A stretch of DNA of 64,000 nt from positions 28,886 to 92,885 of the forward strand of contig CAZBWV010000088.1 in assembly GCA_964495805.1 (NCBI GenBank). Direction: 5' to 3'. Position numbers and translations under genes: made by a program. The notes below the pieces were generated by a model. The model saw only the letters and a program-made list of their open reading frames with translations, searched no databases and was not told the DNA's origin. Shown piece by piece: positions 11,895 through 59,300 of the stretch (position 1 is the stretch's first letter; each line of letters starts with the position of its first letter). Source of the DNA: an uncultured Calditrichaceae bacterium. GTDB lineage: Bacteria > Calditrichota > Calditrichia > RBG-13-44-9.

Positions 11895-12141
11895 ATCCGC
11901 CCCATGTTTATTAAATAAAAAACTACGGAAACAATTCAGAAAATTCAAGCAGTTATTTCCAGTTTTTCAGACAATTCATGTTTTTATACCCAACCCATCC
12001 AATAAGTTTCCCCATCTCCCTCGCTTTCCTCTTTCATCTTTTCTCTTTTCTCTTTTTTTATTGGATACCCATAGATTTTCTCCTAAATTCGCACAACTTT
12101 TGCATTACAGCAAAATACATTTAACACAGGAGGAAATTCTC

Positions 12142-13447: not shown

Positions 13448-16400
13448 TTATACTTTTAGCACAAAATGCAAATCGTCGGTTCGGTATTTCACATTTCGAG
13501 AGGCCGAAAACGAATCGAACCACTTGAGCAGGAAGTTTCCGCCATAAGGCACCGTCTGAATACGGGCTTTTTTCAGAAGCTCCGGTTTCGGGATGTACCC
13601 ATTCCGGAACAGAGCAATTTCCTGGCGATATTCCGGAATCATCTGCTCAATTTCTGCGGTTACTTCCTCTCCGCGTTGCAATTTAAATATTCGCCCCAGA
13701 GATGCGCTCAAATCCACCAGAATTTGCCAGTTCTCCCGACCAATCCTGGAGGGAAGGGCGGCTCGAAATCGTTGTACCCGACCTTCTGCATTGGTGATGG
13801 TTCCGCTGTTTTCCGCAAACGGTGCCAGAGGGAATACAACATCCGCCTGTTTTGCCGTTTCGGTCATAAACATATCTGCAACAATCAGGAATTGGTGGTC
13901 TGATTTTTTCCATTTCATCTCAGCGGTTCCCAGCGGATCCTGTGCCCAGAAGATGGCTGCAGGAATTCGACCCAATCGCCACTCTTTCAGCAGTGCTGCT
14001 GTGGAACGCCCCGGGCGTCGGGGTAACTCTGCTTCCCACTCCTGATTAAACCGCTCGATAACCTGGGGATTGTCCACCCGCTGGTAGCCGGGTAAATATT
14101 CCGGTAACATCCCCATATCCAGCATCCCCTGGAAGTTTACCTCTTCGGGAACCGAAAGCAGAATTTCGCTTTTACCCAGCACATAAGCCAGGGTATTCAA
14201 CCAGTGCACGGTTTCCGCATCTCTGCGCGAACGATGACACACAAAGAGAGGACGTTCCGCTTTCAGCAGTTTTCGGAAGAATTTTTTCAACTCACCGGTA
14301 CTCAAGCCAAAATCGCTCGCTTTCTTTTTACGCGAGATTTCTCCAAGCTCGTTGCGCAGCATCTCCAGGGTGGAAGCGGGAATATGGCGGGCATATTTCT
14401 CCTGTTCGATTACAGAATCCACCAGAAATTTAAGGAATTCCACCCGATGTTCTTCAGAAACGGGTAAATTCTCGCCCCAGCGCGCCAGACGGGAATCCGG
14501 TTGATTCAGGATGTAGAGCGGTTGCCCGCGTCGGGCGGCTTTGTGCAGTTTAATGTAAAGCACGGGATGCGTTTCCATGGGGTCGAAATTGCCCACCAGC
14601 AGGAAGTCGCTGCTTTCAATCTTCTCGAATGTAGCATTGGACATGGAAGCGCGGAGCAACTCCTCGGGTAGTTCATTGAGATTGGCCAGTGAGCCCACAT
14701 TGTTGGTGCCCAGCACCACACGGGCAAACTTTTGTAACAGATAGTTCTCCTCATTGGTTACCGTCGGAGAACCAAAGACTGCCCATTCGGTATCTTCTTT
14801 TTGCAGATCCATAATACGTCGCGCAGTAAACAGGTACGCCTCGTCCCAGCTCACCGGTTGCAACTCACCATCTTTGCGGATATGGGGTTGAGTGAGCCGT
14901 TCATCGCTATTCACATAGCGGAACCCATACCGTCCCTTCACGCACAGATTGCCAAATTCGTTAACCACTGCTTCGCGGTCGGCAGAAGTTTTCATCCAGC
15001 GGTCGTCCAGAATTTCCGCCTGCAGGCTGCAGCCCACACTACAATACTGGCAGATGGTTTTCTCCTTTTCCAGAATCCACGGACCGGGTTTTACGGCATC
15101 CGGTTTGTCCACCAGAGCACCGGTGGGACAGGTTTCCACGCACTGTCCGCAGGAGATGCACTGGCTCTCTGCCAGCGGAACTTCCAGCGTCGGTTTGACC
15201 TTGGTGTCGAATCCACGCTTCACAAACCCGAACACACCCAATCCCATCACCTCGTCGCAGATGCGCACACAGCGGCCGCAAAGGATGCACTTATTCAATT
15301 CAATCTTAATGAAAGGATGACTGTCATCGGGTGGCAGGTCATGGAATTCTCCCTGAAATGCAGTCTGGTCCGCCTGATAATCGGTGGAATGTTTCTGTAA
15401 GTCGCACTCGTAGAATGCCTGGCATCCACACTCCAGGCAGCGCAGGGATTCCTGATACACCTGCTCTTCACTGAAGCCCAGTTCCACTTCTTCCCAGCTG
15501 TGCGCCCGCTCCCGGGCATCCCGGACGGGCATCTTCTGACGCGGAATTTTTGGAACATCAGCAAAATCTTCCGGTTGCGGCGGTCTCAGATTTTCCCGAC
15601 GACTGATGAACGGCTTCCTGGGATAGGCCAGTTCCTCTCCGGTAATGTATTTGTGAATGGCCTGGGCAGCTTTTCCTCCCTGAGCGATGGCTTCGATGGC
15701 AGTGGCTGGTCCCAGCACTACATCTCCCCCGGCAAACACACCGGGAATGTTGGTTTCCATGATTTCCGGTTTGACTTCCAGAGTACCCCAGCGGGTGGTT
15801 TTAATCTCCAGCAGCTTGCCATCCTTCCCGGCATACTCCAGGTCCGGCTTCTGCCCGATGGCGGCAATGACCCAATCCACCTCAATAACATAGTTGGAAC
15901 CCTCGATGGGAATGGGACGGCGACGTCCACTGGCATCGGGTGGTCCAAGCTCCATTTTCACACACTCAATGCCGGTTACCCGATTGTTTTCGTCGGTAAG
16001 AATTTTCACCGGTGCGGTCAGAAAGGTGAATTTGACTCCTTCTTCCCGGGCTTCTTCGATTTCAATTTTATTGGCAGGCATTTCTTTGATGGTGCGCCGG
16101 TAAACGATGTTGACCTCATCGGCTCCCAGGCGCAGCGCAGTCCGGGCGGCATCCATGGCTGTGTTTCCACCACCAATTACAGCTACTTTGCCAGAAAGCT
16201 TTTTCACCTTGCCCAGCTTTACCTCTTCCAGAAACTCGATTCCAGCCAGCACTCCTTCGGCATCTTCATTCTCCACACGCATACTGGTGCTGGCTTGCGC
16301 ACCCAATCCCAGAAAAATAGCTTCGTAACCGTCGTCAAATAGCGAATCGATGGTGAAATCCCGTCCCAGAGCTTTATTGCAATAGATTTCCACCCCCAGT

Positions 16401-17164
16401 TTTGTGATGCCTTCAATTTCTTTATCCAGGATTTTTTCCGGAAGGCGGTATTCGGGAATTCCCCAGCGCAGCATGCCACCGGGTTTGGGCTTGGCATCGA
16501 AAATGTGCACAGTGTGGCCTTCCTGACGCAGGTAATAGGCAGCAGAAAGTCCCGCCGGACCGGCGCCGATTATGGCAATCCGATGACCGGTATCCGGTTT
16601 TACCTCGGGGAAGTAACGGTCGGGACTCTCCAGATCGTAGTCCGCCAAAAAACGTTTAACGTGGTCGATGGCTTCCGCTTCATCCACCAGATTTCGCCGA
16701 CATGCCAGCTCGCAAGGTCGCGTACACACCCGACCGCATACCGTGGGGAGCGGATTGGTTTGTTTGATGAGCGCAATGGCTTCCTTGTATTTGCCCAGGG
16801 CGGCCAGCGCCAGATATCCCTGTACATCCACCCCGGCAGGACAGGTTAGTTTACACGGTCCCAGACAATCTGCATAATGGTTGCTCAGCATCAGCTCCAG
16901 CGCCATTTTGCGCGCTTCGCGAATCGCCTCGCTGTTGGTGGTAATCTTCATCCCGGGGTTTACTTTAGTGGCACAGGACGGTACAAACGTTCGGGCACCC
17001 TCCACCTGCACCACACATAGAAAACAGGAGGTAAACGGTTCCAGCTGATCATCGTGGCAAAGTGTGGGAATGTGAATTCCCTGTTCCCGACACACCTGCA
17101 AAATCGTCTGACCGCTTTCGGCAATCACCGTCTTCCCGTCTATAAATACCTGCACTTTGCTCAT
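13448..17164 (-). CDS. multidomain FeS flavoprotein: 2Fe-2S ferredoxin + GltD-like NAD(P)H oxidoreductase + NuoG-type FeS clusters + degenerate formate-dehydrogenase-like (MopB) domain
   Basis: N-terminal 2Fe-2S fold (CHDD...C..C). GltD motifs CLGPCKLTCP...NPLPTVCGRVCTRPCELAC, FAD/NAD folds IAIIGAGPAGLSAA and VAVIGGGNTAMDAA. Cluster motifs CLECGCQAFYEC, CILCGRCVRIC and CISCGQCVETCP. MopB N-terminal cluster CQYCSVGC...LCVKG. The catalytic Cys/Sec-His region is replaced by SLANLNELPEEL. Confidence 0.8.
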   Translation of the reverse strand: MSKVQVFIDGKTVIAESGQTILQVCREQGIHIPTLCHDDQLEPFTSCFLCVVQVEGARTFVPSCATKVNPGMKITTNSEAIREARKMALELMLSNHYADCLGPCKLTCPAGVDVQGYLALAALGKYKEAIALIKQTNPLPTVCGRVCTRPCELACRRNLVDEAEAIDHVKRFLADYDLESPDRYFPEVKPDTGHRIAIIGAGPAGLSAAYYLRQEGHTVHIFDAKPKPGGMLRWGIPEYRLPEKILDKEIEGITKLGVEIYCNKALGRDFTIDSLFDDGYEAIFLGLGAQASTSMRVENEDAEGVLAGIEFLEEVKLGKVKKLSGKVAVIGGGNTAMDAARTALRLGADEVNIVYRRTIKEMPANKIEIEEAREEGVKFTFLTAPVKILTDENNRVTGIECVKMELGPPDASGRRRPIPIEGSNYVIEVDWVIAAIGQKPDLEYAGKDGKLLEIKTTRWGTLEVKPEIMETNIPGVFAGGDVVLGPATAIEAIAQGGKAAQAIHKYITGEELAYPRKPFISRRENLRPPQPEDFADVPKIPRQKMPVRDARERAHSWEEVELGFSEEQVYQESLRCLECGCQAFYECDLQKHSTDYQADQTAFQGEFHDLPPDDSHPFIKIELNKCILCGRCVRICDEVMGLGVFGFVKRGFDTKVKPTLEVPLAESQCISCGQCVETCPTGALVDKPDAVKPGPWILEKEKTICQYCSVGCSLQAEILDDRWMKTSADREAVVNEFGNLCVKGRYGFRYVNSDERLTQPHIRKDGELQPVSWDEAYLFTARRIMDLQKEDTEWAVFGSPTVTNEENYLLQKFARVVLGTNNVGSLANLNELPEELLRASMSNATFEKIESSDFLLVGNFDPMETHPVLYIKLHKAARRGQPLYILNQPDSRLARWGENLPVSEEHRVEFLKFLVDSVIEQEKYARHIPASTLEMLRNELGEISRKKKASDFGLSTGELKKFFRKLLKAERPLFVCHRSRRDAETVHWLNTLAYVLGKSEILLSVPEEVNFQGMLDMGMLPEYLPGYQRVDNPQVIERFNQEWEAELPRRPGRSTAALLKEWRLGRIPAAIFWAQDPLGTAEMKWKKSDHQFLIVADMFMTETAKQADVVFPLAPFAENSGTITNAEGRVQRFRAALPSRIGRENWQILVDLSASLGRIFKLQRGEEVTAEIEQMIPEYRQEIALFRNGYIPKPELLKKARIQTVPYGGNFLLKWFDSFSASRNVKYRTDDLHFVLKV

Positions 17165-17436
17165 TTCTTGCTCCCATTCTTTAAAAAATTCCCGACATTC
17201 ATCCCCTCACCTCCGCTTTTCCGTCTATCTCTCAAAGCCATAACTTGCTCGCAATTCATTTCCATGTAAAAACCACATGTGCACAAAAATGAAACAGCTT
17301 CACCCCATCATCCCGTTCATTTTTTCCTGATCCACAATTTCCAATTCCCCAACACCTGGACTCCCCCACTTCTTTCAACCCTTTAAACCCCCATTCCCTT
17401 ACATCCCTTTCATTTTACATTTTACATTTCAACACC

Positions 17437-17520
17437 TCCCCTATCCCCCCATTTCCCCTATTCCCCTTATATCCCTTATATCCCCTATATCCCCTACATC
17501 CCCTATATCCCGTATTTCCC
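17437..17520. repeat. tandem 9-bp repeat, about 9 copies of ATCCCCTAT on the top strand (GGGGATATA-type G-tracts on the operon mRNA strand)
   Basis: Direct read: tcccctatc cccccattt cccctattc cccttatat cccttatat cccctatat cccctacat cccctatat cccgtattt. It lies in a 385-bp pyrimidine-rich non-coding spacer between the nuoF-like gene and the fusion gene. Confidence 0.7.
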
Positions 17521-17550
17521 TTCTACCCCTCACCTCCCTCCAACCCTTCC

Positions 17551-19371
17551 TCACGCCTCTTCCACTTCCTCCTTCACACCGGTTAAAATTTCGATGGCAT
17601 CGAACTTACACACATCGTAACAGGCGCCGCAGCGGGTACACATCTCTTCGTTGATGTAGTGCGGTTTCAGTTTTTCGCCGGTGATGGCGCCCACGGGACA
17701 GGCACGCAGGCACACCATGCAGCCAGTACAGGCGTCGGCAATAACCCGATAGGTAATCAGCGCCCGACAGCTTTTGGCGGGACATTCCTTGCGATAGATA
17801 TGGGCTTCGTACTCTTCCCGGAAGTATTTCAGCGTGGTTAGCACCGGATTGGGAGCCGTTTGCCCCAGACCGCACAGCGAACTTTTTTTGACGTTCTCCG
17901 CCAGTTTTTCCAGCTTATCCAGATCTTCCGGTTTGCCTTCGCCATTGGTGATGCGTTCCAGAATTTCCAGCATTCGTTTGGTACCCAGGCGGCAGAAGGT
18001 GCATTTACCGCACGATTCTTCCTGGGTAAAATTCAGGAAGAACTTCGCCACATCCACCATACAGGTGCGATCGTCCATGACCACCATACCACCGGAGCCC
18101 ATGATGGCGCCGGTTTTATTCAGCGATTCATAATCCACCGGTGTATCCAGCAGCTCTGCCGGGACGCACCCGCCGGAGGGACCACCCAACTGCACCGCTT
18201 TGAACTGTCGGTCGTCCTTGATGCCACCACCAATATCGAAAATGACTTCTTTCAGGGTCATTCCCATTGGTACTTCCACCATACCGCCGCGTTTAATTTT
18301 ACCGGCCAGAGCAAACACTTTGGTGCCCTTGCTTTTTTCCGTACCATAGCGGGCGAACTGGTCGGCGCCGTTCAGGATAATCCATGGCACATTGGCGTAG
18401 GTTTCCACATTGTTGATATTGGTGGGCTTCCCCCACAATCCTTTCACGGCAGGGAACGGCGGACGCAGGCGGGGCATACCACGCTTGCCTTCCACACTGG
18501 CAATCAGTGCTGTTTCCTCGCCGCACACAAACGCACCCGCTCCCAGCTTCAGCGAAATATCGAAAGAGAAATCGCTTCCCAGAATCTTCTTCCCCAGGAA
18601 TCCCTTTTCCCGCGCTTGCTGGATGGCAATTTCCAGCCGTTGCACCGCCAGAGGATACTCCGCGCGCACATAAATAATCCCTTCCTGCGCACCGATCGCA
18701 TATCCGGCAATCAGCATCCCTTCCAGCACGCTATGCGGGTCACCTTCCATGACGCTGCGATCCATAAAAGCGCCGGGGTCTCCTTCGTCTCCGTTGCAGA
18801 TGATATACTTGGTTTTTCCCGGTGACTGGCGGGCAAATTGCCATTTGATACCGGTGGGGAAACCGGCACCACCGCGTCCGCGCAAACCGGACTGCTTAAT
18901 CTCTTCAATGACCTCCTGCGGACTCATCCGGAACAGCACCTTGCGCAGCGCCTGGTAACCTTTTTGTGCCAGATAATCGTCGATATGCTCGGGATTGATT
19001 TTCCCGGCATTGCGCAGCACAATGCGAACCTGCCGCTCGAATAGCTCATTTTCCGCCTGCTCAATCCCCTCGCCTTTCACCACCCAATCTTCAATAATTT
19101 CCCTGTTCCGGAGGTGTTTTTCCAGAATCTGGGGCAGTTTCTTGGGAGTCACATCCCCGTAAATTACCGGGGGCATATCGGGCATCTGGATTTCGATGAG
19201 CGGTTCGCGGTAGCAGGCACCGATACAGCCGGTTTTTTCCAGTTCAACGGGTAAATTTTCCTGAGCAATCTTTTTCTCCAGCGCAGCGTACACATCGGCT
19301 GCTCCGGCAGCAATGCCACAACTGGCCATTCCCACCAATATCTTTATTTTTCCGTTTTTCGGGGAATTCAT
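17551..19371 (-). CDS. NuoF-like NADH-binding FMN/FeS flavoprotein (HydB/HndC/StnB-type) with a C-terminal 2x[4Fe-4S] ferredoxin domain
   Basis: GAGGAGFPTGIKW, CGKCTFCRLGT, and C-terminal motifs CTGCMVCLRACP and CTRCGACYDVC. Length is 606 aa. Confidence 0.85.
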   Translation of the reverse strand: MNSPKNGKIKILVGMASCGIAAGAADVYAALEKKIAQENLPVELEKTGCIGACYREPLIEIQMPDMPPVIYGDVTPKKLPQILEKHLRNREIIEDWVVKGEGIEQAENELFERQVRIVLRNAGKINPEHIDDYLAQKGYQALRKVLFRMSPQEVIEEIKQSGLRGRGGAGFPTGIKWQFARQSPGKTKYIICNGDEGDPGAFMDRSVMEGDPHSVLEGMLIAGYAIGAQEGIIYVRAEYPLAVQRLEIAIQQAREKGFLGKKILGSDFSFDISLKLGAGAFVCGEETALIASVEGKRGMPRLRPPFPAVKGLWGKPTNINNVETYANVPWIILNGADQFARYGTEKSKGTKVFALAGKIKRGGMVEVPMGMTLKEVIFDIGGGIKDDRQFKAVQLGGPSGGCVPAELLDTPVDYESLNKTGAIMGSGGMVVMDDRTCMVDVAKFFLNFTQEESCGKCTFCRLGTKRMLEILERITNGEGKPEDLDKLEKLAENVKKSSLCGLGQTAPNPVLTTLKYFREEYEAHIYRKECPAKSCRALITYRVIADACTGCMVCLRACPVGAITGEKLKPHYINEEMCTRCGACYDVCKFDAIEILTGVKEEVEEA

Positions 19372-52732: not shown

Positions 52733-52831
52733 AAAGGGACGTCCGGAAAAACCCCGCAAGAAATCCGGTCAGAAATCCCGGAAGAAATCCCGGCGGAAAA
52801 AGAAAAGTAAGTGAATTAATTTTTACTGAGC

Positions 52832-53989
52832 TCACGTTTCTGGTTGGGGAGACAAATCTAAAAAATTGACAATTTTCTCCGCCGCCCGCCGGGATGCCCC
52901 GGGCGTCCCTAAAATGTCGGGGATGCGCTTGAGCTCCCCTGCTACCTTGTGGTAATATTCGGAATCGTTCAGCATGCTCCAGAACCATTCCACAATACAC
53001 TCAGCGCGGGCATCCTGCTGGATCAGTTCCGGCACCACTTTTTTGCCCAGCACGATATTGGCCAGGGCAATTTGGTCAATTTTAACCAGCCGTTTTCCGA
53101 TGAAATAGGTAAGCGGCGAAACACGATAAAGTACAATCATAGGTGTGCCCAGATACCCGGTTTCTAACGTAGCGGTGCCACTGGCTACCACCGCCAGATG
53201 CGCATGCTTCATCAACGCATAGGTATCCCGGGCGATTAATCGAAGGTTTTCCTCCCCCTGCACAATTTCCCGATAAACCGACTCTTCCACCGCATCGGAC
53301 ATTCCCACCACCCATTGGTACCGGTGACTCAAACAAAATTCCTGTTTTGCCTGAACCATCAGGGGCAGCAGTTGCCTTACCTCGTTCATCCTGGAACCCG
53401 GTAACAGCGCAATGATTGGTTTTTCCTTCCCCAGCGAATGGCGCTTCAGAAAAGCCTCCTTCCCGTTTACCTGCTGAAGCTGATCCACCAGCGGGTGTCC
53501 CACAAAATGAGCGACGATTCCGTGCTTTCGGTAGAATGCTTCTTCAAAGCGAAAAATGACCAGAGGTAAATCCACATACCGCCGGATTTTTTCCACTCTT
53601 CTCTCGCCCCATGCCCACAGTTGCGGGCAGATGTAGTACACTACCGGAATCCCCATTTTTTTAGCCAGGCGTGCCAGCTTCAGATTAAATCCGGGGTAAT
53701 CCACTAAAATCACGGCTACCGGTCGATGAGATTTAATCCACTGCCGCAGGTGTCGGAAAACCCGCCGAATAAAGGGCAGATGCCGGATCACCTCCGCCAG
53801 TCCTAAAAAAGCCATCTGCCGAATGTGGTAAAGTAACTCCACCCCTTCTGCGGCCATCCGATCGCCACCAATTCCGGTAAACCGCAGAGCCGGGTGCCGT
53901 TGCTTCAGTGCCTGCACCAGGTCTGCTGCATGCCGATCGCCAGAAGGCTCACCGGCGACAATCAATATTTCCGGTCCGGATTCACTCAT
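52832..53989 (-). CDS. lpxB: lipid-A-disaccharide synthase
   Basis: N-terminal ILIVAGEPSGDRHAADL motif and GT19 architecture, 385 aa. Confidence 0.85.
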   Translation of the reverse strand: MSESGPEILIVAGEPSGDRHAADLVQALKQRHPALRFTGIGGDRMAAEGVELLYHIRQMAFLGLAEVIRHLPFIRRVFRHLRQWIKSHRPVAVILVDYPGFNLKLARLAKKMGIPVVYYICPQLWAWGERRVEKIRRYVDLPLVIFRFEEAFYRKHGIVAHFVGHPLVDQLQQVNGKEAFLKRHSLGKEKPIIALLPGSRMNEVRQLLPLMVQAKQEFCLSHRYQWVVGMSDAVEESVYREIVQGEENLRLIARDTYALMKHAHLAVVASGTATLETGYLGTPMIVLYRVSPLTYFIGKRLVKIDQIALANIVLGKKVVPELIQQDARAECIVEWFWSMLNDSEYYHKVAGELKRIPDILGTPGASRRAAEKIVNFLDLSPQPET

Positions 53990-57406: not shown

Positions 57407-57841
57407 TTAAAACTTTAACGGTTCCGGTTGTTGTGCCTGATGCGGATGTTCCGGACCGGCATAGACTTTCAGTTTTTTGAACATTTTGCGACCCAGCGCG
57501 TTCTTGGGCAACATCAGCCGCACGGCATGTTCAATAATTCGCTCGGGATGTTTCTCCAGCATGCGGCGATAAGGAATGTGCTTCTCGCCACCGGGATAAC
57601 CGGAATGGGTAAAATAGGTTTTCTGTTCAGCCTTCCGACCGGTCACCTTCACCTTTTCCGCATTGATAACAATCACAAAATCACCCACATCCTGATGGGG
57701 CGCAAAATTGGGTTTATGTTTTCCCCGTAAAATTCGAGCAATATGGGATGCCAATCGACCCAGTACGTAATCCTGTGCATCCACTACATACCATTTTCGG
57801 TCTTGAGCAATTTCCTCAGGTTTCGAATAATCCGTTCTCAA
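57407..57841 (-). CDS. rplM: 50S ribosomal protein L13
   Basis: [20 protein letters not shown] is a canonical L13 N-terminus. Confidence 0.9.
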
Positions 57842-58155
57842 AGTAATATCCTCCTAAAAAATTTTATAGCCCGCAAATATACGGTTAATGCATAAGTCTG
57901 TCAAGCTTATTTAAATTTTTTAAGGGAACCCGGGAACGAGCAGAGCGCTCATTTTTTCTTGATCTTTTCCGAGCATCCGCTCATTTTCAGGCCGCTAATG
58001 TAAGCAAGAAATAGGATGAATCCAATGATAGAATGGAAAAAATCGATAAATTCATAAAGCATCCATGCAATTGAACAAACGAATAAATCAGAACTTTAAC
58101 GAATTTTTCTCCACTTCTCCATAGTTATCCATCCACCAGTTCAACTTGTAACTCA

Positions 58156-58171
58156 TGGTACCCGGAATGCA
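58156..58171 (+). promoter_or_regulatory. candidate sigma-54 (-24/-12) element TGGTAC-N5-ATGCA upstream of etfBA
   Basis: The GG and GC dinucleotides have correct 10-bp spacing, matching 5/6 and 4/5 to TGGCAC-N5-TTGCA. It lies about 380 nt upstream of the etfB ATG. Confidence 0.25.
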
Positions 58172-58285
58172 GCGCCATTACTCAGCGCCCAACAGCCTTT
58201 CCGGTAATATGATTTTACTTTCCTGCCTAAAATCAGACAAAAATCATTTAGGGCTCACCGTTCGGAATGCAACATTGCCAAAACA

Positions 58286-58320
58286 ATCCCCCCTATATCC
58301 CCTATGTCCCTACTCCCCTT
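58286..58320. repeat. second locus of the 9-bp CCCCTAT(A/G)T G-tract repeat, about 4 copies
   Basis: atcccccct atatcccct atgtccct actcccct lies in the divergent rplM/etfB intergenic region. The G-rich strand is again the minus strand, upstream of rplM. Confidence 0.5.
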
Positions 58321-58550
58321 GCATCCTCCTTCCCCATCACCAAATTTTAAGAAGGTTTGCATTCCGGATTTCGAGTTATTATTATAGAAATGCGTAAGTT
58401 TATCGGGAAAATTTTCGGAAAAATCACCATCAGGAGTCGTTTAGGATTCCGCACACTTTTTTATTTACGAAAAACGATGGTTTTTCCTTGAATCCCGAGT
58501 AAAAAGCTCAGATCAACAACAACCTTTAATTAATTGAAGGAGGTAAGGCA

Positions 58551-59300
58551 GTGAATATTGCAGTGTGCATTAAACAGGTTCCCGATACGGAGACCCGGCC
58601 GAAGATTGCCGAGAACGGGAAAGAAATGGACAAAACCGGGGTGAAATGGATTGTCAATCCCTATGACGAATTTGCTATCGAAGAGGGATTGCAGCTTACC
58701 GAGAAAAACGGTGGTGAGGTCACCATCATTTCACTGGGATCGAAAGAGATTGAACCCACCATCCGGGCGGCACTGGCTATGGGTGCCAAAAAAGCCATTC
58801 GGATTGAGGGACCGGATAATATCACCGATCCCATGGTAACCGCTCGCGCACTGGCCGAAGTGCTGAAACAGGGCAATTACGACCTGATTCTGTTTGGCAA
58901 ACAGGCTATTGATGACGACATGGCTCAGGTTCCGCAGATGGTAGCAGAATTGCTGGAACTACCCTGTGCCACTGTGGTGGTAAAGCTGGAAATTACCGAC
59001 GGAAAAGCCACCGCCGAACGCGAGGTGGAAGGTGGCAAGGAACGGCTATCGTTCTCCCTGCCGGCAGTTATTTCTGCCCAGAAAGGATTGAACGAACCCC
59101 GTTATCGTTCCCTGAAGGGCATTATGCAGGCCAAGAAAATTCCCATTCAGGTGGTGGAAGCCAATCTGGACCAGTCCAGAATTGAAGTGCTGCAATTGAA
59201 GTATCCTCCCCAGAAGCAACCGGGTAAAATTGTCGGCGAAGGTGCCGACGCAGTACCCGAACTGGTGCGTCTGCTTCACGAAGAGGCAAAAGTCATTTAA
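58551..59300 (+). CDS. etfB: electron transfer flavoprotein beta subunit
   Basis: MNIAVCIKQVPDTE start and EtfB AMP-binding architecture. GGAGG SD. Confidence 0.85.
   Translation: MNIAVCIKQVPDTETRPKIAENGKEMDKTGVKWIVNPYDEFAIEEGLQLTEKNGGEVTIISLGSKEIEPTIRAALAMGAKKAIRIEGPDNITDPMVTARALAEVLKQGNYDLILFGKQAIDDDMAQVPQMVAELLELPCATVVVKLEITDGKATAEREVEGGKERLSFSLPAVISAQKGLNEPRYRSLKGIMQAKKIPIQVVEANLDQSRIEVLQLKYPPQKQPGKIVGEGADAVPELVRLLHEEAKVI

What the first reader, a model, noticed from the sequence alone, without database searches (positions are those of the whole stretch)
58286..58320. Same 9-bp G-tract repeat family recurs upstream of the rplM-rpsI operon: a dispersed short-repeat element
The same unit occurs as about 4 copies between rplM (minus) and etfB (plus): atcccccct atatcccct atgtccct actcccct. 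At both loci the G-rich strand is the minus strand and lies upstream of a minus-strand gene. The unit is AT(A/G)TCCCCT. Two independent occurrences in 64 kb in the same orientation suggest a genome-wide family. Candidates are a REP-like element, a regulator-binding iteron array or a G4 regulatory motif.
Basis: seen in the sequence. Interest (0 to 1): 0.5.

Follow-up and report, generated by a model that had tools for sequence, protein, structure and literature searches.

The report
Dispersed G-tract nonamer repeat, short copy
The short C-rich repeat between rplM and etfB is a real but small, stable copy of a lineage-specific family of variable 9-bp G-tract tandem repeats in an uncultured Calditrichia bacterium. 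It resembles the quadruplex-prone repeats known from Xanthomonas and Nostoc, and nothing ties it to control of the ribosomal-protein operon.

Summary
Window 58286-58320 reads ATCCCCCCT ATATCCCCT ATGTCCCT ACTCCCCT. It shares an exact 21-mer pattern, and a 44-nt alignment, with the larger array at 17437-17520.

The family is real. A third array lies on the same 139-kb source contig outside the window. Two further loci come from contigs of a metagenome sample that holds the same species. A sister species carries a drifted unit (GGGTAAATA) at another site.

The arrays are young. The larger ones change copy number between near-identical strains, and sister species lack them at both orthologous window sites.

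On the G-rich strand every array is a canonical G-quadruplex motif. These two loci hold the only such motifs in the 64 kb.

Four of five arrays that have a flanking stop codon begin within about 25 nt after it, with the G-rich, C-free strand as sense. The flagged copy is the exception. It sits in a divergent spacer, 445 bp from rplM and about 380 bp beyond its promoter-like site, and 35 bp upstream of a weak candidate etfB promoter. It is invariant in all five other strain-level copies.

The REP and iteron readings fail. The closest known kind is the GGGAATC / GGGGA(C/T)T quadruplex-forming repeats of Xanthomonas and Nostoc. I file it as a new member of that kind, with function unproven.

The parts
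58286..58320 (-). The flagged array. It has four degenerate units (9, 9, 8 and 8 nt). The minus strand reads AAGGGGAGTAGGGACATAGGGGATATAGGGGGGAT. Positions 58288-58318 form one minimal canonical G-quadruplex motif.
   Evidence: It is invariant in all five other strain-level copies retrieved.
58321..58333 (-). Degenerate tail (TGCATCCTCCTTC on the + strand), the 3' end of the stretch that aligns with the flank of the locus-1 array (58290-58333 against 17500-17541).
   Evidence: local alignment score 45 against 21.9 +/- 3.3 for shuffles.
58263..58272 (+). Left arm (CGGAATGCAA) of a 10-bp inverted repeat that brackets the C-rich tract. It is specific to this locus and is not a feature of the repeat family.
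   Evidence: The + strand RNA folds as a stem with an 84-nt C-rich loop (z = -2.25).
58357..58366 (+). Right arm (TTGCATTCCG) of the inverted repeat. It overlaps the -35-like hexamer of a weak candidate etfB promoter (TTTGCA-18-TATTAT, 58356-58385).
17437..17520 (-). The main array of the family in the window: 9.4 copies of TCCCCTATA, which is GGGGATATA on the sense (minus) strand. Quadruplex motifs cover 17438-17546 and 17379-17407. The tract begins 4 nt after the stop of the nuoF-like gene.
   Evidence: A near-identical strain carries one extra 9-bp unit.
17411..17429 (-). Adjacent heptamer array, (CATTTTA)2.7 on the + strand, AAATGTA on the sense strand. The same 19-mer follows the nonamer array at the third locus.
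   Evidence: (+28 bp in strain L113).
17215..17525 (-). Lineage-specific insert of about 311 bp in the spacer between the nuoF-like gene and the 1238-aa gene. Its repeat-bearing part (about 17292-17525) is nearly C-free on the sense strand. The insert is bracketed by the 12-bp direct repeat CCCCTCACCTCC (17203-17214 and 17526-17537).
   Evidence: (the sister species spacer is 69 nt with no repeats). No promoter-like or terminator-like site is found inside it.

Best explanation
The flagged sequence is the shortest copy of a young, lineage-specific, dispersed family of tandem repeats in an uncultured Calditrichia bacterium. It has only four G-tracts.

**What the family is.** The unit is the nonamer GGGGATATA on the G-rich strand. 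Arrays have a homogeneous core and degenerate edges. At two loci they are followed by an (AAATGTA)n heptamer array. Each strand uses only three of the four bases.

**Shown.**
- The larger arrays gain and lose whole units between near-identical strains.
- The arrays are absent from the orthologous spacers of sister species.
- They neighbour unrelated genes.
- Most of them begin directly after a stop codon, with the G-rich, C-free strand as the mRNA-sense strand.
- Each is a canonical G-quadruplex motif.

**Inferred.**
- Gain and loss of units happens by slipped-strand mispairing.
- The family persists because this composition and orientation are tolerated in untranslated transcript segments. 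There are no hairpins and no C-rich Rho loading sites, and at most a G4 forms.
- The family does not persist because each copy is a regulator.

**The flagged copy.** It sits in a divergent spacer, far from the rplM promoter and just upstream of a weak candidate etfB promoter. It is most likely a stable relic or minimal copy. Its only plausible effect is structural (G4 or i-motif) on the etfB promoter region.
For: - **Same family.** An exact shared 21-mer pattern with 0 expected by chance, a 44-nt alignment and one repeat finder family.
- **Organism and relatives.** NuoF homologues at about 80% identity are named Calditrichia. The source contig is 139,218 bp.
- **Third locus.** It lies on the same source contig, and on the same MAG contig as the flagged locus: 10.8 copies of AGGGGATAT at L244 10782-10879, followed by AATGTAAAATGTAAAATGA as at locus 1.
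- **More loci from JGI sample Ga0256914.** This sample also holds the flagged locus at 99.8% identity. L173/L226 has tetranucleotide r = 0.89 to the window. L126 carries 15.4 copies. L139 from this sample is a strain copy of the third locus.
- **Copy-number polymorphism.** Locus 1 differs by +9 bp and +28 bp between strains. Locus 3 shows three alleles. The heptamer array after RNase III has 4 copies against 3.
- **Absence in relatives.** The sister species spacer is 69 nt against 386 nt here. More distant relatives have spacers of 44-229 nt without repeats. The rplM-etfB spacer of the sister species is non-homologous except for the rplM promoter region.
- **Sister species has its own arrays elsewhere**, with units GGGTAAATA and AATTTGG.
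- **Quadruplex capacity.** The only canonical motifs in the window are at these loci. With the quadruplex term the predicted energy of the 76-nt G-rich strand of the flagged locus drops from -3.8 to -16.7 kcal/mol, and that of locus 1 from -1.3 to -39.3 kcal/mol.
- **Stop-codon association.** Four of five eligible arrays start within about 25 nt after a stop with the G-rich strand as sense. A rough placement model gives P = 3.5e-5.
- **Published parallel.** Rehm et al. 2015 (PMC4692102) describe the same properties for heptamer G4 repeats.
Against: - The flagged copy itself shows none of the dynamic behaviour. It is identical in every strain seen, lies between divergent genes, and is not next to a stop codon. 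Its membership therefore rests on sequence similarity alone.
- Only about 170 kb of this species could be examined, so 'genome-wide' is an extrapolation.
- Assignment of L126 and L173 to the same species rests on sample of origin, composition and repeat type, not on a shared contig.
- The shared composite (nonamer array, then heptamer array, then GGGATGTRAGGG) at loci 1 and 3 suggests copying of a larger segment. Slippage alone does not explain that.
- No transcript, structural or functional data exist.
- The heptamer arrays of the same genomes cannot form G4, so G4 capacity may be incidental.
Confidence: 0.75

Rival explanations
1. The flagged tract is a functional G4 or i-motif switch for the etfBA promoter. 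A quadruplex on the template strand, 35 bp upstream of the -35 element, would modulate RNA polymerase or activator access.
For: - It has exactly four G-tracts, the minimum for a G4, the unit number preferred in Xanthomonas and Nostoc.
- A predicted G4 forms inside a hairpin closed by the flanking 10-bp inverted repeat.
- A candidate promoter lies at 58356-58385.
- The tract is invariant in the strains seen, while two SNPs lie just upstream of it.
Against: - The promoter match is weak: 9 of 12, with 5 such sites found in the region against 2.0 +/- 1.2 in shuffles.
- The sister species has a non-homologous spacer with a different, C-free (AATTTGG)n tract at that position, so there is no conservation.
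- Rehm et al. could not show regulation for the analogous repeats and found them under-represented between divergent genes.
Confidence: 0.1
2. The arrays are selected transcript elements. As G/A/U-only RNA directly after stop codons they are blind to Rho or form RNA G4. That would allow long untranslated stretches inside operons or stabilise 3' ends. In the inverse, C-rich orientation they act as Rho loading sites.
For: - Four of five arrays abut a stop codon with the C-free strand as sense.
- The spacer at locus 1 sits inside an apparent operon, is nearly C-free over about 300 nt, and has no promoter-like or terminator-like site.
- The one array with the C-rich strand as sense (L126) sits after a hairpin, between two transcription units.
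- All 7-9-mer arrays in the two species use three letters per strand.
Against: - There are no transcript or termination data.
- A mutational bias could give the same orientation, for example R-loop-driven expansion when the non-template strand is G-rich.
- Across other phyla the orientation bias is weak, 13 against 7.
- This does not explain the flagged copy, which is not next to a stop codon.
Confidence: 0.12
3. It is a small non-autonomous mobile element (MITE- or REP-like) that inserts as a unit. The tandem repeats would be only its internal filler.
For: - Loci 1 and 3 share an ordered composite: nonamer array, then the same 19-mer heptamer block, then GGGATGTRAGGG.
- The roughly 311-bp insert at locus 1 is bracketed by a 12-bp direct repeat found nowhere else in the window.
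- The size of the insert matches the length difference to the sister species spacer.
Against: - Loci 1, 3, 4 and 5 have no terminal inverted repeats.
- There is no homology beyond the low-complexity part.
- GGTGAGGGG-like motifs recur at the edges of different loci, so the bracket is not a locus-specific target duplication.
- No transposase or RAYT gene was seen nearby.
- REP elements are palindromic, and these units are not.
Confidence: 0.08
4. It is an array of binding sites (iterons or an operator) for a DNA-binding protein that regulates rplM-rpsI or etfBA.
For: It has short direct repeats with about one helical turn of spacing in a divergent promoter region.
Against: - Isolated units are not enriched.
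- The same unit occurs after stop codons of unrelated genes.
- Copy number varies freely between strains.
- It is absent in the sister species although the rplM promoter region is conserved there.
- There is no replication initiator gene and no turn in GC skew.
Confidence: 0.03

Closest known systems
G-quadruplex-forming intergenic simple sequence repeats GGGAATC (Xanthomonas) and GGGGA(C/T)T (Nostoc PCC 7120, related to the cyanobacterial STRR heptamers); Rehm et al. 2015, PLoS One, PMC4692102
   Same: - Head-to-tail repeats of a short unit with a G3-4 tract followed by A/T-rich bases (GGGGAT...).
- Dispersed and intergenic.
- Extensive length variation between close relatives.
- Four units are common.
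[quoted passage not shown]
- Neighbouring genes belong to unrelated functional classes.
- No proven function.
   Different: - The unit is 9 nt rather than 7.
- The host is a Calditrichia bacterium.
- Only a handful of loci could be seen here, against a spread all over the genome there.
- Some copies are followed by an (AAATGTA)n array.
- The flagged copy lies between divergent genes, a position under-represented in that family.
- G4 formation has not been measured for this unit.
REP / BIME elements of enterobacteria and pseudomonads
   Same: Short, dispersed, extragenic, often in 3' untranslated regions and inside operons.
   Different: REPs are imperfect palindromes that form hairpins and are mobilised by RAYT transposases. 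These units are direct repeats that use three letters per strand and cannot self-pair. No RAYT gene was seen.
Contingency-locus SSRs (phase variation) of Haemophilus and Neisseria
   Same: Slippage-prone tandem repeats whose copy number differs between strains.
   Different: Contingency-locus repeats have units of 1-7 nt inside ORFs or between the -35 and -10 elements of surface-structure genes. Here the arrays lie after stop codons of housekeeping and metabolic genes. A 9-nt unit would not shift the reading frame.

Membership tests
G4-forming intergenic SSR (Rehm et al. 2015 type) | Head-to-tail tandem repeats of a 6-9 nt unit that contains a G-tract | tested here: met
   TRF finds period 9: 2.3 copies at 58290-58310 and 9.4 copies at 17437-17520; 10.8, 15.4 and 7.7 copies at the other loci.
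G4-forming intergenic SSR (Rehm et al. 2015 type) | At least four G3+ tracts with loops of 1-7 nt (canonical quadruplex motif) | tested here: met
   58288-58318, 17438-17546 and 17379-17407 are the only such motifs in the window; shuffles give a mean of 1.07.
G4-forming intergenic SSR (Rehm et al. 2015 type) | Many copies dispersed over the genome with a bias to non-coding DNA | tested here: inconclusive
   Three nonamer loci lie on one 139-kb contig and two more on same-sample contigs, all intergenic. The whole genome could not be scanned.
G4-forming intergenic SSR (Rehm et al. 2015 type) | Number of units varies between close relatives | tested here: met
   Met for loci 1 and 3 and for the heptamer array. 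Not seen at the flagged locus, which is identical in all five other strain-level copies.
G4-forming intergenic SSR (Rehm et al. 2015 type) | [quoted passage not shown] | tested here: met
   Four of five eligible arrays, P about 3.5e-5 under a rough placement model. The flagged copy itself does not meet this, because it lies in a divergent spacer.
G4-forming intergenic SSR (Rehm et al. 2015 type) | Quadruplex formation shown biophysically (CD spectra, K+ dependence) | not testable with these tools
   Only a ViennaRNA prediction with the quadruplex energy term is available.
REP / BIME | Unit is an imperfect palindrome that forms a stem-loop | tested here: not met
   Each strand of the arrays lacks G or C. 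Without the quadruplex term the G-rich strands fold at only -1.3 and -3.8 kcal/mol.
REP / BIME | Associated RAYT (TnpA-REP) transposase in the genome | not tested
   None was seen in the gene lists of the loci read. The whole genome was not available.
Iteron array | Direct repeats of about 17-22 bp next to a replication initiator gene or origin | tested here: not met
   The unit is 9 bp, the neighbours are rplM and etfB, and cumulative GC skew is monotonic across the window.
MITE | Terminal inverted repeats plus a locus-specific target-site duplication | tested here: not met
   Loci 1, 3, 4 and 5 share no terminal inverted repeats. The 10-bp inverted repeat at the flagged locus is unique to it. 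The 12-bp direct repeat at locus 1 resembles motifs at the edges of other loci.

The most novel reading that the evidence does not exclude
The three-letter arrays are a selected, orientation-dependent transcript module that spreads as a small composite element. Placed directly after a stop codon with the C-free strand as RNA, they would make long untranslated stretches invisible to Rho, or cap them with an RNA G-quadruplex. That would let a 320-nt insertion sit inside an operon without polarity. The inverse orientation would act as a Rho loading site between transcription units.
Probability: 0.12. Interest if true: 0.6.

Novelty: new member of a known kind. Interest (0 to 1): 0.3.

Why it matters
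If the reading is right, the flagged sequence is not a regulator of the ribosomal-protein operon. It is one small copy of a fast-evolving repeat family.

- It extends quadruplex-prone intergenic repeats, so far described as heptamers in Xanthomonas and cyanobacteria, to a nonamer unit in the little-studied phylum Calditrichota.
- The same preference for the sense strand just after stop codons appears here. That recurrence in unrelated phyla suggests a common cause, whether mutational or selective, that has not been explained.
- Practically, one MAG contig ends at the polymorphic locus-1 array, and other arrays sit at or near contig ends. The arrays could serve as strain markers.

Tried and rejected
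- **Rfam.** Gathering thresholds over the whole window gave nothing. Permissive scans of both spacers gave only chance-level hits.
- **Coding reading.** Only short repeat-encoded ORFs such as IGDIGD or PYIPYI cross the arrays. I rejected them.
- **Replication origin or DnaA-box reading.** GC skew is monotonic across the window. Rejected.
- **Scan of 185,579 species genomes.** The shared 21-mer pattern gave 106 stretches in many phyla (Lentisphaeria, Bacteroidetes, cyanobacteria, Verrucomicrobia, Streptomyces coding repeats). The source species was not among them. My rough estimate of the background rate of 9-bp tandem duplications could yield about that many hits for any unit, so I do not treat the hits as one family.
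- **Stop-codon orientation test on those heterogeneous hits.** The result was weak, 13 against 7. The rule is therefore claimed only for the Calditrichia lineage.
- **Other 3' gene ends in the window.** A survey found no further G-tract arrays.
- **Homology between loci 1 and 3 beyond the low-complexity part.** None was found.
- **Look-up of the L226 aminopeptidase.** After the cluster look-up the last contig look-up went to the locus-3 protein instead, so the assignment of L173/L226 and L126 to this genome stayed indirect.

Full report
**1. What is at the coordinates**

Window 58286-58320 (+) reads atcccccct atatcccct atgtccct actcccct t.
- It lies in the 709-bp spacer between rplM (57407-57841, minus) and etfB (58551-59300, plus).
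- The four units are 9, 9, 8 and 8 nt long. One fits AT(A/G)TCCCCT exactly.
- TRF reports 2.3 copies at 91% over 58290-58310.

The companion locus is 17437-17520, with 9.4 copies of TCCCCTATA.
- It lies in a 386-bp spacer between two minus-strand genes: a nuoF-like gene (17551-19371) and a 1238-aa NuoG/GltD/formate-dehydrogenase-like gene (13448-17164).

The two loci are related beyond chance.
- CCCCTAYRTCCCCTAYRTCCC matches only these two places, with none in 100 shuffles.
- The repeat finder groups them in one family.
- A gapped alignment extends over 58290-58333 and 17500-17541, scoring 45 against 21.9 +/- 3.3 for shuffles.
- Isolated single units are not enriched: 20 found against 25 expected.

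**2. Organism and material for comparison**

- NuoF homologues at about 80% identity are named Calditrichia bacterium.
- The window's proteins sit on a 139,218-bp ENA contig.
- A near-identical strain is MAG GCA_054029175.1.
- A sister species, at 92-93% protein identity, comes from ENA sample ERZ23491094.
- Relatives at 80-85% identity were also fetched.

**3. The family is real and dispersed**

- **Third array.** It follows a 249-aa gene on the same source contig (L244 10782-10879, 10.8 copies of AGGGGATAT). In the near-identical strain it lies on the same MAG contig as the flagged locus, about 39 kb away and in the opposite orientation.
- **Shared composite.** As at locus 1, its nonamer array is followed by the 19-mer AATGTAAAATGTAAAATGA and then GGGATGTRAGGG.
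- **Metagenome scan.** It returned contigs from JGI sample Ga0256914. That sample also holds the flagged locus at 99.8% identity (L220, which is L122).
  - L173/L226: array overlapping the stop of a Xaa-Pro aminopeptidase gene; tetranucleotide r = 0.89 to the window.
  - L126: 15.4 copies.
  - L139: the third locus in another strain.
- **Heptamer-only array.** One sits 12 nt after the RNase III stop.
- **Sister species.** It has (GGGTAAATA)n directly after an M28 peptidase stop, and (AATTTGG)n arrays at two sites.
- **More distant relatives.** About 59 kb examined showed none.

**4. The arrays are young and unstable**

- Locus 1 differs between strains by one 9-bp unit and by 28 bp of the heptamer array.
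- Locus 3 has three length alleles.
- The RNase III heptamer array has 4 copies against 3.
- One MAG contig ends exactly at the edge of the locus-1 array.
- The orthologous nuoF-like spacer is 69 nt in the sister species, and 72, 229 and 44 nt in further relatives. None has repeats.
- The window therefore carries an insert of about 311 bp, bracketed by the 12-bp direct repeat CCCCTCACCTCC.
- In the sister species the rplM-etfB spacer keeps the rplM promoter region but is otherwise non-homologous. It carries a different C-free tract next to etfB.
- The flagged copy is identical in all five other strain-level copies: L109, L110, L112, L122 and L220.

**5. Structural properties**

- All 7-9-mer arrays in the two species use only three bases per strand.
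- About 300 nt of the locus-1 spacer is nearly C-free on the sense strand.
- The only canonical quadruplex motifs in the 64 kb, on either strand, are at the two loci.
- With ViennaRNA's quadruplex term the predicted energy of the 76-nt G-rich strand of the flagged locus goes from -3.8 to -16.7 kcal/mol. For locus 1 it goes from -1.3 to -39.3 kcal/mol.
- These are predictions, not measurements.

**6. Position relative to genes**

- Four of the five arrays that have a flanking stop codon begin within about 25 nt after it, with the G-rich strand as sense: locus 1, locus 3, L173/L226 and the sister-species array.
- L126 has the C-rich strand as sense. It lies after a hairpin and before a symporter gene.
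- A rough uniform-placement model gives P = 3.5e-5.
- Locus 1 has no promoter-like or terminator-like site. I infer that the array is part of an operon transcript.
- The flagged copy is the exception. It is 445 bp from the rplM start and about 380 bp beyond a strong rplM promoter-like site (TTGACA-17-TATATT, 57904-57876). It is 230 bp from the etfB start and 35 bp upstream of a weak promoter-like site (58356-58385).
- A 10-bp inverted repeat (58263-58272 and 58357-58366) brackets it. A third CGGAATGCA sits at 58163. This feature is not shared by the other loci.

**7. Interpretation**

- Best supported: a lineage-specific dispersed family of G-tract nonamer tandem repeats that changes by slippage. 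The flagged site is a minimal, stable copy.
- Function is not shown.
- The strand and position bias could reflect selection (no Rho loading, RNA G4) or mutation (R-loop-prone G-rich non-template strands). Both are inference.
- The REP, iteron, MITE, coding and origin readings were tested and not met.

**8. Comparison with known systems**

- Rehm et al. 2015 (PMC4692102) describe GGGAATC repeats in Xanthomonas and GGGGA(C/T)T repeats in Nostoc.
- Those repeats show dispersal, a non-coding bias, length variation, a preference for four units, and a position within 50 bp after stop codons on the sense strand. No function has been demonstrated.
- The present family matches these properties with a 9-nt unit in another phylum.

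**9. Cross-phylum scans**

- The pattern hits 106 stretches in 185,579 species genomes.
- Some genomes hold several arrays, notably Lentisphaeria MAGs, Oligosphaera ethanolica and a Bacteroidetes MAG.
- The set is heterogeneous, and my rough estimate of the background rate of 9-bp tandem duplication could account for the total.
- Orientation bias there is weak, 13 against 7.
- I draw no family-level conclusion from these hits.

Noticed in passing
window 17161-17202 (-); L114 11853-11891 (+): A conserved 12-13 codon upstream ORF (MNVGNFLKNGSKK* here, MRKIDLTNGSKK* in the sister species). It has a strong Shine-Dalgarno sequence and its stop overlaps the start of the 1238-aa gene as ATGA. This suggests translational coupling downstream of the repeat insert.
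   Followed up: partly
window 17203-17214 and 17526-17537: The 12-bp direct repeat CCCCTCACCTCC occurs only twice in the window and brackets the roughly 311-bp lineage-specific insert. On the sense strand it reads GGAGGTGAGGGG, which is Shine-Dalgarno-like.
   Followed up: partly
window 17411-17429; L244 1015-1056 and 10884-10901: (AAATGTA)n heptamer arrays accompany the nonamer arrays at two loci. One stands alone right after the RNase III stop. Copy number differs between strains.
   Followed up: partly
window 58163-58171, 58263-58271, 58358-58366: CGGAATGCA occurs three times within about 200 bp upstream of etfB and nowhere else in the window (0.95 expected). Two copies form a 10-bp inverted repeat around the C-rich tract. 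It could be an operator or an RNA stem.
   Followed up: partly
window 57876-57904 (-): A near-consensus sigma-70-type promoter-like site, TTGACA-17-TATATT, upstream of rplM. The surrounding 60 bp are conserved in the sister species.
   Followed up: partly
window 12024-12056: (CTTTTCT)4.7, a G-free heptamer array inside a G-poor tract (11953-12090), between the divergent RelA/SpoT-like and FKBP-type genes.
   Followed up: no
window 52743-52799: A 12-bp repeat, about four copies of CCGGGATTTCTT on the minus strand, just downstream of the minus-strand gene 52832-53989 (LpxB-like by synteny).
   Followed up: no
L120 6271-6506 and 15319-15386: The sister species carries long C-free (AATTTGG)n-type arrays, one of them ending about 45 nt before the etfB start. 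It is a different unit with the same three-letter style.
   Followed up: partly
L111 end (5859) and L113 start: Two contigs of MAG GCA_054029175.1 break at the edge of the locus-1 array and overlap by about 127 nt. This is consistent with an assembly-graph branch caused by copy-number alleles.
   Followed up: partly
L035, L037, L044, L079 (cyanobacterial MAGs): In Coleofasciculus and Oscillatoria the CCCCTACAT arrays start at or inside one arm of a GC-rich inverted repeat (for example GGGGCGAGTCG...CGACTCGCCCC), which looks like a REP-type palindrome with CTAC/GTAG.
   Followed up: no
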